From IMG/VR virus record IMGVR_UViG_2648501150_000028: a DNA stretch of 6,008 nt; one strand, 5' to 3'. Shown piece by piece: positions 5,589 through 5,765 of the stretch. The notes beneath the pieces were generated by a model. The model did no database searches. It had not been told where the DNA came from and was given only the letters and a program-made list of their open reading frames with translations. Origin of the DNA: a virus. Lineage: Duplodnaviria; Heunggongvirae; Uroviricota; Caudoviricetes. The translations under genes were made by a program, and so were the position numbers. Within the stretch, counting starts at the first letter, position 1. The number at the start of each line of letters is the position of its first letter.

Positions 5589-5765
5589 GTGCAGGAGATT
5601 CACTAGGGGGTAGTGCAAATAATTCACTATCTGGTGCAGCAAATTCACCAGGTAGTGCAGGAGATTCACTAGGGGGTAGTGCAAATAATTCACTATCTGG
5701 TGCAGCAAATTCACCAGGTAGTGCAGGAGTTGCACCAGGGGGTAGTGCAGGAGATTCACCCAGAA
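5589..5765. repeat. array of eight iteron-like direct repeats (core GTGCA-N4-ATTCAC, spacing 24/21/21 bp) forming a 66-bp higher-order unit
   Basis: GTGCA starts at 5589, 5613, 5634, 5655, 5679, 5700, 5721, 5745. The 66-bp blocks 5589-5654 and 5655-5720 are identical; 5721-5765 is a diverged partial third copy. Each unit has dyad-like GTG...CAC ends. Confidence 0.9.

What the first reader, a model, noticed from the sequence alone, without database searches (positions are those of the whole stretch)
5589..5765. Iteron-like array of eight ~22-bp repeats immediately downstream of mor
Eight tandem copies of GTGCA-N4-ATTCAC at 24/21/21-bp spacing (about two helical turns), organised as two identical 66-bp blocks plus a diverged third. 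Direct-repeat arrays of this size and spacing with dyad-ended units are the hallmark of iteron-type replication origins (lambda ori inside gene O; ~22-bp iterons of R6K-type plasmids) or of multi-site arrays for a dimeric DNA-binding protein. A Mu-type phage replicates by transposition and has no need for such an origin, and phage Mu has its C gene here. This could be a replication module fused to a Mu-like early region, the edge of a different element, or a novel regulatory array under Mor/C-type control.
Basis: partly seen in the sequence, partly recalled or inferred. Interest (0 to 1): 0.8.

Follow-up and report, generated by a model that had tools for sequence, protein, structure and literature searches.

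The report
Lambdoid replication-origin repeats beside a Mu-like end
The eight repeats are real, but they belong to a lambda-like prophage's replication-initiator gene that a Mu-like prophage has cut in two, and they are most likely the initiator's binding sites at an origin built like lambda's, which is a known kind of feature.

Summary
The array is real: 8 units at 5589-5759, steps 24/21/21 bp. Seven match GTGCA-N4-ATTCAC exactly, against 0.21 expected by chance.

It is not part of the Mu-like element. That element is a Bcepmuvirus-type prophage, 99% identical to phage PhiKM, and mor is its last gene. It ends at 5502/5503, the same end seen at three other insertion sites. From 5503 onward the window is 99-99.8% identical to the inside of the replication-protein gene of lambdoid phages cdtI and SfV, joining at codon 60 of 294. 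That explains the open frame with no start codon.

In the intact gene the array lies between a winged-helix N-domain and a helical C-domain and encodes a disordered linker. Thirteen related lineages carry an array at the same place with the same geometry (6-N5-6 dyads, mostly 21-24 bp period, as in lambda's iterons). The motifs and peptides differ and track the predicted recognition helix.

Arms are better conserved than spacers. Copy number varies in frame (2, 5, 6, 8). A 39-bp stretch after the array is conserved at synonymous sites.

Best reading: origin iterons of a lambda-style origin inside the initiator gene, here separated from the initiator's 5' end. No binding or replication experiment exists. 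New member of a known kind; modest interest.

The parts
4951..5340 (+). mor, the last gene of the Mu-like (Bcepmuvirus, PhiKM-like) prophage. Context only; not part of the origin.
   Evidence: Pfam Mor E=1.3e-43. It is the last gene before the host flank in E. coli EcPF7. The region is 99% identical to phage PhiKM, genus Bcepmuvirus.
5341..5502 (+). Right-end region of the Mu-like prophage, ending ...TCTAATCA(C). It contains two TCTTCCCAT direct repeats (5431-5439 and 5451-5459).
   Evidence: Four independent insertions share the sequence up to AATCAC and then diverge. Matches in E. coli genomes stop at 5503-5509 and are followed by different host genes. Repeats.
5503..6008 (+). 3' part (from the last base of codon 60 to about codon 228 of 294) of a lambdoid-prophage replication-initiator gene of the cdtI orf46 / SfV orf39 type. 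It is cut at 5503 by the Mu-like insertion and at 6008 by the window's end. Window coordinate = gene nt + 5323.
   Evidence: 99.8% identical to cdtI 37662-38167. Intact protein: HTH_36 E=2e-11, and PHROG 270 'replication initiation protein' E=4e-88. No start codon before 5840.
5503..5588 (+). Codes for the end of the recognition helix and the wing of the N-terminal winged-helix domain. The first 179-180 nt of the gene are absent from the window.
   Evidence: Alignment with the intact genes. The model shows helices 40-47 and 51-64 and strands 67-73 and 79-85, with pLDDT 80-92.
5589..5759 (+). Array of 8 dyad-symmetric units, (A/G)GTGCA-N5-T(T/G)CAC(T/C), at steps of 24/21/21 bp. These are the putative iterons. 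The array encodes a disordered Gly/Ser/Ala/Asn linker (aa 89-146 of the intact protein).
   Evidence: Arms are more conserved than spacers. The geometry matches lambda's iterons. pLDDT is about 30.
5760..5797 (+). Conserved core after the array, CCAGAACCAGTCACTCTTTTGAACCAGTCAAAGAACCA. The tested 39-bp stretch is 5759-5797 and includes the last C of unit 8. It is nearly identical in DNA across E. coli, Salmonella, Klebsiella and Vibrio phages.
   Evidence: Identical codons at identical amino acids: 151/160 (94%) here against 320/843 (38%) in the N-domain.
5764..5812 (+). Short direct repeats (R)AACCAGTCAAW. AACC starts at 5764, 5781, 5793 and 5805; TRF reports the 12-bp array at 5780-5809. The local sequence is moderately AT-rich (60%). 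Candidate unwinding or loading region.
   Evidence: AACC is 9.5 times denser after the arrays than elsewhere, across 11 lineages. Copy number ranges from 1 to 4 among E. coli alleles.
5861..6008 (+). Start of the helical C-terminal domain (PEYSPEFEQAWLAYPKRAGGNSK...). This is a mosaic module also found joined to unrelated N-domains.
   Evidence: tblastn finds aa 164-294 alone in Stx2_499, 606R7 and POCJ13. PHROG families for 'replication protein', 'DnaD-like helicase loader' and 'primosomal protein' match it. The model has helices at 184-245.

Best explanation
The array is the initiator-binding (iteron) part of a lambda-style replication origin. That origin lies inside the initiator gene of a cdtI/SfV-type lambdoid prophage.

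Shown: a PhiKM-like Bcepmuvirus prophage has inserted at codon 60 of this gene. Its mor-proximal right end therefore abuts the remaining 3' two-thirds of the gene.

Inferred mechanism in the intact phage: dimers of the N-terminal winged-helix domain bind the 15-17-bp dyads. The half-sites alternate in orientation, 10 bp apart within a unit and 11 or 14 bp across unit boundaries. The dimers build a nucleoprotein complex that opens the adjacent, moderately AT-rich AACC-repeat core. The C-terminal domain then recruits the helicase machinery. The same DNA is translated as a disordered interdomain linker that tolerates whatever peptide the sites encode.

Inferred for this window: the initiator's winged helix is broken, so the origin is separated from its initiator. 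This prophage copy should not be able to start its own replication unless a matching initiator is supplied in trans.
For: Composite nature and junction.

Initiator identity: HTH_36 and a DnaD_N-like match, and PHROG replication-initiator families. The gene lies after cI/cro/cII. In Klebsiella-group prophages it is followed by DnaC-like and DnaB-like genes, and in other phages by primase/helicase, DnaB-like helicase or P genes.

Position and geometry match lambda. Lambda's annotated iterons lie at gene nt 349-433, are 18 bp long with steps of 20/24/23 bp, and include 6-N5-6 dyads such as TCCCTCAAAACGAGGGA. Here the array lies at gene nt 266-436.

Thirteen lineages with related N-domains all have an array at the same gene position (one search lists them). 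The units are dyad-symmetric and the period is 21-24 bp in most (17/22 bp in LESphi3), but the motifs and encoded peptides differ. Examples are GGGCAGGAGCTGCCC, GTGACACAGAGTCAC, ATGCCA-N5-TGGCAT and GTGCAGGAAATGCAC.

Lineages with the same predicted recognition helix share half-sites, and different helices go with different half-sites.

Arms are more constrained than spacers. In allele E30, 0 of 8 substitutions fall in arms (P=0.004), although 6 amino acids change. Polymorphic columns number 6/50 in arms against 18/55 in spacers (P=0.01). Across genera the arms are 96-100% identical, the spacers 82-87% and the N-domain DNA 74-75%.

The array-encoded segment is predicted to be disordered, between two folded domains.

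Copy number varies in frame: 2, 5, 6 or 8 units. This parallels the 4 versus 6 iterons of lambda and Stx phages (PMC7466680).

Established paradigm: ori-lambda consists of four inverted-repeat iterons, each bound by an O dimer, plus an AT-rich region, all inside gene O. O has an N-terminal DNA-binding domain, a linker and a C-terminal P-binding domain (PMC6022878). P22 and L gene 18 likewise contain repeats (PMC8022706).
Against: No experiment on this origin type was found: no binding, footprinting or autonomous-replication data.

The N-domain shows no detectable sequence homology to lambda O (hhalign probability 7%) and belongs to a different Pfam family.

The region after the array is only moderately AT-rich. 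It is 0.60-0.62 AT in this allele and weak in RothC and V039C, unlike lambda's high-AT tract.

Repeat units within one array arose by recent duplication, so conservation within an array is not independent evidence.

Arms are not immune to polymorphism (6 variable columns).

Fold matches are generic winged helices and none is significant (best E about 0.01).

The left junction and the target-site duplication are not in the window, and the junction was not found in the reference-genome collection.
Confidence: 0.78

Rival explanations
1. The array is only a slippage-prone coding repeat that encodes a flexible low-complexity linker. It has no function as DNA, and its dyad look is incidental.
For: The array is always in frame, and all length variants differ by multiples of 3. 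The encoded segment is predicted to be disordered. Copy number varies as in ordinary coding minisatellites.
Against: The peptide is not what is conserved. Unrelated peptides are encoded at the same place in related genes, while dyad symmetry and spacing persist. Substitutions avoid the arms although they change amino acids. Half-sites track the recognition helix.
Confidence: 0.1
2. The units are initiator-binding sites, but they serve regulation rather than origin firing. They could act in autoregulation, initiator titration, origin pairing or a transcription roadblock, with the true origin elsewhere.
For: Arrays of initiator sites serve control functions in iteron plasmids (own knowledge). 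The AT-rich tract next to this array is weak. In Stx phages two of the six iterons are weakly bound yet still required (PMC7466680).
Against: The position, the geometry and the adjacent DNA-level conserved core all match the origin layout of lambda, P22 and L. No other repeat cluster was seen in the replication genes examined.
Confidence: 0.09
3. The array belongs to the Mu-like element. It would be either a Mor/C-controlled regulatory array or a replication module acquired by a transposable phage.
For: Only physical adjacency: the array begins 249 nt after mor.
Against: The Mu-like prophage ends at 5502/5503 at four independent sites. No complete E. coli genome among 5,426 has mor and the array adjacent. 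The array occurs in 954 genomes inside lambdoid prophages.
Confidence: 0.01
4. The near-identity of the 39-bp stretch after the array reflects its use as a recombination joint where N-terminal and C-terminal modules are exchanged. Under this reading it is kept similar by repeated exchange, not by a role in origin function.
For: The stretch sits exactly at the boundary between the mosaic N-domain-plus-array module and the varied C-terminal modules. Fusion genes with joints inside the array exist.
Against: It persists across E. coli, Vibrio and, in part, Pseudomonas phages whose flanking DNA is about 60-65% identical. The AACC-repeat pattern recurs even where the sequence differs (mEp010, LESphi3 and the Vibrio 1.x phages). 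The two roles are not exclusive.
Confidence: 0.25

Closest known systems
ori-lambda inside gene O of phage lambda, and the 6-iteron origins of Stx phages 933W and P27
   Same: An array of direct repeats sits in the middle of the initiator gene, between the part coding the DNA-binding N-domain and the part coding the C-domain. Each unit is an inverted repeat with 6-N5-6 geometry and a period of 20-24 bp. The array is translated as a linker. Copy number differs between phages and adds residues to the protein. A less GC-rich region follows.
   Different: The initiator's N-domain is not detectably homologous to lambda O. It is Pfam HTH_36 with a DnaD_N-like match, not Phage_rep_O (hhalign probability 7%). 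The motif is different. There are 8 units here (5 is usual) against 4 or 6. The AT-rich tract is much weaker, and short AACC direct repeats take its place. In cdtI and SfV no P-like gene follows. This origin type has not been tested experimentally.
Repeats inside gene 18 of phages P22 and L (putative origins)
   Same: The principle is the same: each distantly related origin-binding protein has its own repeats within its own coding region, in a lambdoid early-right operon (PMC8022706).
   Different: The motifs and unit sizes differ: about 20 bp x 4 in P22 and 11 bp x 6 in L. Homology of the proteins was not tested here.
Iteron origins of theta plasmids (R6K, pSC101, RK2 and F types)
   Same: Multiple roughly 20-bp sites for a winged-helix initiator, spaced about two helical turns apart, lie next to an unwinding region (own knowledge; general description in PMC2647930).
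   Different: Plasmid iterons are usually non-coding and lie outside rep. No plasmid Rep family matched the protein. The context is a prophage early-right operon.
Phage Mu / BcepMu early region and the targets of Mor and C
   Same: Only the neighbourhood: B-like ATPase, Gam, GemA and Mor genes lie upstream.
   Different: The array lies outside the transposable prophage.

Membership tests
Lambda-style origin embedded in the initiator gene | Three or more direct repeats of about 18-24 bp inside the initiator's coding sequence | tested here: met
   There are 8 units at steps of 24/21/21 bp, at nt 266-436 of the 885-nt intact gene.
Lambda-style origin embedded in the initiator gene | Each unit is an inverted repeat, fit for a dimeric protein | tested here: met
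   6-N5-6 dyads with at most 1 mismatch number 9 in the 181-bp array against 3 in the rest of the gene. The codon-shuffle mean is 3.8 per whole gene. Lambda's iterons show the same geometry under the same scan.
Lambda-style origin embedded in the initiator gene | The array lies between the DNA-binding N-domain and the C-terminal domain and encodes a flexible linker | tested here: met
   HTH_36 covers aa 17-67 and the C-domain covers aa 164-294; the two occur as separable modules. The model has pLDDT 80-92 for aa 1-88, about 30 for aa 91-179, and 60-79 for aa 180-245.
Lambda-style origin embedded in the initiator gene | An adjacent AT-rich unwinding region | tested here: inconclusive
   The best 40-bp window after the array is 0.62 AT, in the top 1.5% of the gene. 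It is the gene's maximum in 24B, S137 and mEp010, but weak in RothC and V039C. Conserved AACC repeats occupy this position.
Lambda-style origin embedded in the initiator gene | Repeat sequence co-varies with the initiator's DNA-binding domain (origin specificity) | tested here: met
   In 13 lineages, the same predicted recognition helix goes with the same half-site and different helices go with different half-sites. Relatives that share only the C-domain carry unrelated repeats. The evidence is qualitative.
Lambda-style origin embedded in the initiator gene | The initiator binds the repeats, and the fragment supports replication | not testable with these tools
   This needs EMSA or footprinting and a plasmid-replication assay. 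No such data were found in the searchable literature.
Lambda O protein family (Pfam Phage_rep_O) | N-terminal domain homologous to lambda O | tested here: not met
   Lambda O matches PF04492 at E=6e-36 and this protein does not. Profile-to-sequence hhalign gives probability 6.8%.
Plasmid iteron Rep initiators | Match to a plasmid Rep family | tested here: not met
   No plasmid Rep family appears in the Pfam or NCBIfam scans. Fold search gives only generic winged-helix matches with E at or above 0.01, among them plasmid-initiator chains 4pql and 4pt7 and DnaD-N 2v79.
Part of the Mu-like transposable prophage | Lies within the element's ends and travels with it | tested here: not met
   The element ends at ...AATCA(C), position 5502/5503, at four independent sites. 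No genome among 5,426 has the two parts adjacent.

The most novel reading that the evidence does not exclude
The stretch after the array (window 5760-5812) may be an undescribed, widely shared origin-core element of the HTH_36-type phage initiators. It comprises the 39-bp sequence conserved at synonymous sites plus AACC direct repeats at about 11-12 bp. It would be the site of unwinding or helicase entry. It would stay constant while the neighbouring iterons and the partner helicase genes change, across phages of Enterobacteria, Vibrio and Pseudomonas.
Probability: 0.3. Interest if true: 0.5.

Novelty: new member of a known kind. Interest (0 to 1): 0.3.

Why it matters
It removes an apparent paradox, a plasmid-like iteron array in a phage that replicates by transposition. 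The window spans the junction of two prophages.

It assigns a likely origin to a replication module present in about 18% of complete E. coli genomes (954 of 5,426). That module also occurs in toxin-carrying and serotype-converting phages (cdtI, Stx2c phages, SfV), where the origin is not annotated.

The panel of related initiators, each with its own dyad motif, gives a ready set of protein and site pairs for studying winged-helix specificity.

The DNA-level conserved core beside the variable iterons is a testable candidate for the opening or loading site.

For this genome, the insertion predicts a lambdoid prophage that cannot initiate its own replication.

Tried and rejected
- Looked for an independent gene start for the open frame. 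There is no ATG/GTG/TTG between 5462 and 5840, which the truncation explains.
- The antisense 75-aa ORF at 5532-5759 is a by-product of a stop-free repeat and was dropped.
- Pfam on the window's fragment alone gave nothing, and so did NCBIfam. Only the intact gene from phage records could be classified.
- A sequence search of solved structures found nothing relevant.
- The exact 40-mer across the junction was absent from the one-genome-per-species collection. The source genome, the left junction and the target-site duplication therefore remain unseen.
- The viral-contig scan returned only the same N-domain allele. It served as a copy-number census but not as a divergence sample.
- The SfV genome paper could not be read.
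- Rfam found no RNA family in the window.
- The promoter and terminator scan of 5300-6008 was at chance level.
- The automatic half-site picker failed for 24B, SI5 and the two Vibrio 1.x phages. For those I relied on the earlier outputs.

Full report
**1.
Tandem Repeats Finder reports a 66-bp period x 2.4 copies (96% match) at 5589-5749, and a 21-bp period x 7.7 copies to 5759. The eight units start at 5589, 5613, 5634, 5655, 5679, 5700, 5721 and 5745. GTGCANNNNATTCAC occurs exactly 7 times, against 0.21 expected by chance. The seventh unit is GTGCAGGAGTTGCAC, whose 5-bp arms are perfectly symmetric. A second, shorter repeat (12 bp x 2.5) follows at 5780-5809.

**2. The window is a junction of two elements.**
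- Upstream genes are Mu-like: an AAA_22 B-like ATPase, Gam, a DUF2786/DUF7168 protein, GemA and Mor. This part is 99% identical to Escherichia phage PhiKM, genus Bcepmuvirus.
- In E. coli EcPF7 the same prophage has its late genes diverging leftward and its early genes running rightward. Mor is therefore the last gene before the host flank. That is why no C gene follows.
- In complete E. coli genomes the similarity to the Mu-like part stops at window 5503-5509 and is followed by a different host gene each time. Four independent insertions share ...TCTAATCA(C) and then diverge.
- From 5503 onward the window is 99-99.8% identical to the inside of the 'replication protein' gene of lambdoid phages cdtI, SfV, mEp460 and several Stx phages.
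- In cdtI that gene (orf46) has 885 nt, and the window joins it at nt 180, the last base of codon 60. This explains why the frame is open from 5462 yet has no start codon before 5840.
- None of 5,426 complete E. coli genomes has the two parts adjacent. The junction 40-mer was not found in the reference-genome collection.

**3. The interrupted gene is a replication initiator.**
- The intact protein (294 aa) has an N-terminal HTH_36 domain (E=2e-11) with a sub-threshold DnaD_N match. It hits PHROG families annotated as replication initiation, O-like, DnaD-like loader and primosomal (best E=4e-88).
- It lies in the early-right operon after cI, cro and cII-like genes.
- In Raoultella and Pseudocitrobacter prophages it is followed by DnaC-like and DnaB-like genes. 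In other phages it is followed by primase/helicase, DnaB-like helicase or P genes.
- The N-terminal (aa 1-85) and C-terminal (aa 164-294) parts occur separately in different phages.
- An AlphaFold model built on 28 homologues has three parts. Residues 1-88 form a confident winged helix (pLDDT 80-92). Residues 180-245 form a helical domain. Residues 91-179 have pLDDT of about 30. The array therefore encodes a disordered linker.
- Fold search gives only generic winged-helix matches, none significant.

**4. The array behaves as DNA sites, not as a conserved peptide.**
- (a) In thirteen lineages with related N-domains, an array of dyad-symmetric units sits at the same gene position (nt about 245-390). 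The period is 21-24 bp in most and 17/22 bp in LESphi3. The motifs and the encoded peptides differ:

| Lineage | Unit |
|---|---|
| cdtI group | GTGCA-N5-TTCAC |
| 24B, SI5 | GGGCAGGAGCTGCCC |
| mEp010 | GTGACACAGAGTCAC |
| RothC, V039C | ATGCCA-N5-TGGCAY |
| S137 | GTGCC...GCAC |
| D290 | GTGAT-N5-GTCAC |
| LESphi3 (Pseudomonas) | GTGCAGGAAATGCAC |
| two Vibrio phages | GTGACA..TGTCC |

- (b) Lineages with the same predicted recognition helix share half-sites, and different helices go with different half-sites. Relatives that share only the C-domain carry unrelated mid-gene repeats.
- (c) Within the cdtI group the arms are more constrained than the spacers. In allele E30, none of 8 substitutions falls in the 50 arm positions (P=0.004), while 6 amino acids change. 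Among 18 distinct 105-bp arrays, 6/50 arm columns are polymorphic against 18/55 spacer columns (P=0.01). Between E. coli, Raoultella and Pseudocitrobacter the arms are 96-100% identical, the spacers 82-87% and the N-domain DNA 74-75%.
- (d) 6-N5-6 dyads cluster in the arrays. Because neighbouring arms also pair across the spacers, the array is a run of half-sites in alternating orientation, 10 bp apart within a unit and 11 or 14 bp across unit boundaries.
- (e) Lambda's annotated iterons have the same placement (gene nt 349-433), period (20/24/23 bp) and 6-N5-6 geometry.

**5. Copy number varies, always in frame.**
- The gene occurs in 954 of 5,426 complete E. coli genomes.
- Five units is the common state. 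Of 79 viral contigs, 68 had five intact units and 6 more had the same 105-bp array with mutated arms. Six units occurred in 3 contigs.
- Eight units occurred in 2 contigs, in cdtI, in one pig isolate and in this window. Two units occur in strain ML775.
- Pseudocitrobacter reached eight units by duplicating its own 66-bp block.
- The 12-bp repeat ranges from 1 to 4 copies.
- This parallels the 4 versus 6 iterons, and the 13 extra residues, of lambda versus Stx-phage O (PMC7466680).

**6. A conserved core follows the array.**
- The 39 bp after the array (window 5759-5797) are almost identical in DNA among six lineages whose N-domains are 54-72% identical in protein.
- Codons for identical amino acids are themselves identical in 151/160 cases there, against 320/843 in the N-domain.
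- AACC recurs at steps of 10-12 bp (17 bp for the first step) and is 9.5 times denser in the 73 nt after the arrays than elsewhere, across 11 lineages.
- The region is moderately AT-rich: 0.60-0.62 here, and the gene's maximum in three lineages.
- I read this as the likely opening or loading region. A role as a recombination joint between modules is an alternative and is not exclusive.

**7. Mechanism.**
- Shown: the composite structure, the position of the array in an initiator gene, and DNA-level constraint with lambda-like geometry.
- Inferred: dimers of the winged-helix domain bind the units and assemble a complex that opens the adjacent core, and the C-domain recruits the helicase machinery. 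This follows the lambda model (PMC6022878).
- Inferred for this window: the insertion removes codons 1-60, including most of the winged helix. The origin is thus separated from its initiator, and the prophage should be unable to initiate replication unless complemented in trans.

**8. Comparison with known systems and novelty.**
- The array works like ori-lambda, but the protein is not a member of the lambda O family. No plasmid Rep family matches.
- The principle that each lambdoid origin-binding protein carries its own repeats inside its gene is established.
- I found no description or test of this particular origin type, and phage records do not annotate it.
- It is therefore a new member of a known kind. 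Interest is modest. The more novel element is the conserved core beside the variable iterons.

Noticed in passing
window 1-5502: The Mu-like part is a Bcepmuvirus-type prophage, 99% identical to Escherichia phage PhiKM. Its early operon runs to the right end, so mor is the terminal gene. It is found at many different chromosomal sites in E. coli, next to araH, cysE, irp2, rimK, dcuC and others.
   Followed up: partly
window 5431-5439 and 5451-5459: Two exact TCTTCCCAT direct repeats lie 20 bp apart, 44-72 bp from the prophage end. A related TTATTCCCT lies nearer the end. They may be transposase end-binding sites.
   Followed up: no
window 5502-5504: The junction base is ambiguous. All four insertions have C after ...AATCA, and the intact target also has C there. 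The element may therefore end in CA or in CAC, and the 5-bp duplication would be CCTTT or CTTTG. The left end is not in the window.
   Followed up: partly
P0066 / P0081; L107 2193-2906: In some E. coli prophages a cro/YdaS-like N-terminus is fused in frame directly into the array. In P0066 the DNA joint lies exactly at the start of a unit; for P0081 only the protein was seen. The winged-helix domain and the genes upstream of it are deleted. The repeats seem to act as deletion or recombination joints.
   Followed up: partly
window 5780-5809: The 12-bp repeat GAACCAGTCAAW varies from 1 to 4 copies among E. coli alleles, independently of the iteron copy number.
   Followed up: yes
window 5532-5759, minus strand: A 75-aa antisense ORF runs through the array. 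It exists only because the repeat unit has no stop codon in that frame. No evidence supports it as a gene.
   Followed up: partly
L012 nt 378-496 of the gene; L013 nt 388-470 of the gene: Initiators that share only the C-domain (Stx2_499, 606R7) show the same two-part layout with other sequences: a longer-period array followed by a short 12-bp-period repeat. The architecture may be general among O-like genes.
   Followed up: partly
L001 and L002 (cdtI, SfV): In cdtI and SfV the initiator gene is not followed by any helicase or loader gene; dam/PAPS-reductase-like and PerC-like genes follow instead. Klebsiella-group relatives have DnaC-like and DnaB-like genes there. How the cdtI/SfV type recruits a helicase is unclear.
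   Followed up: no
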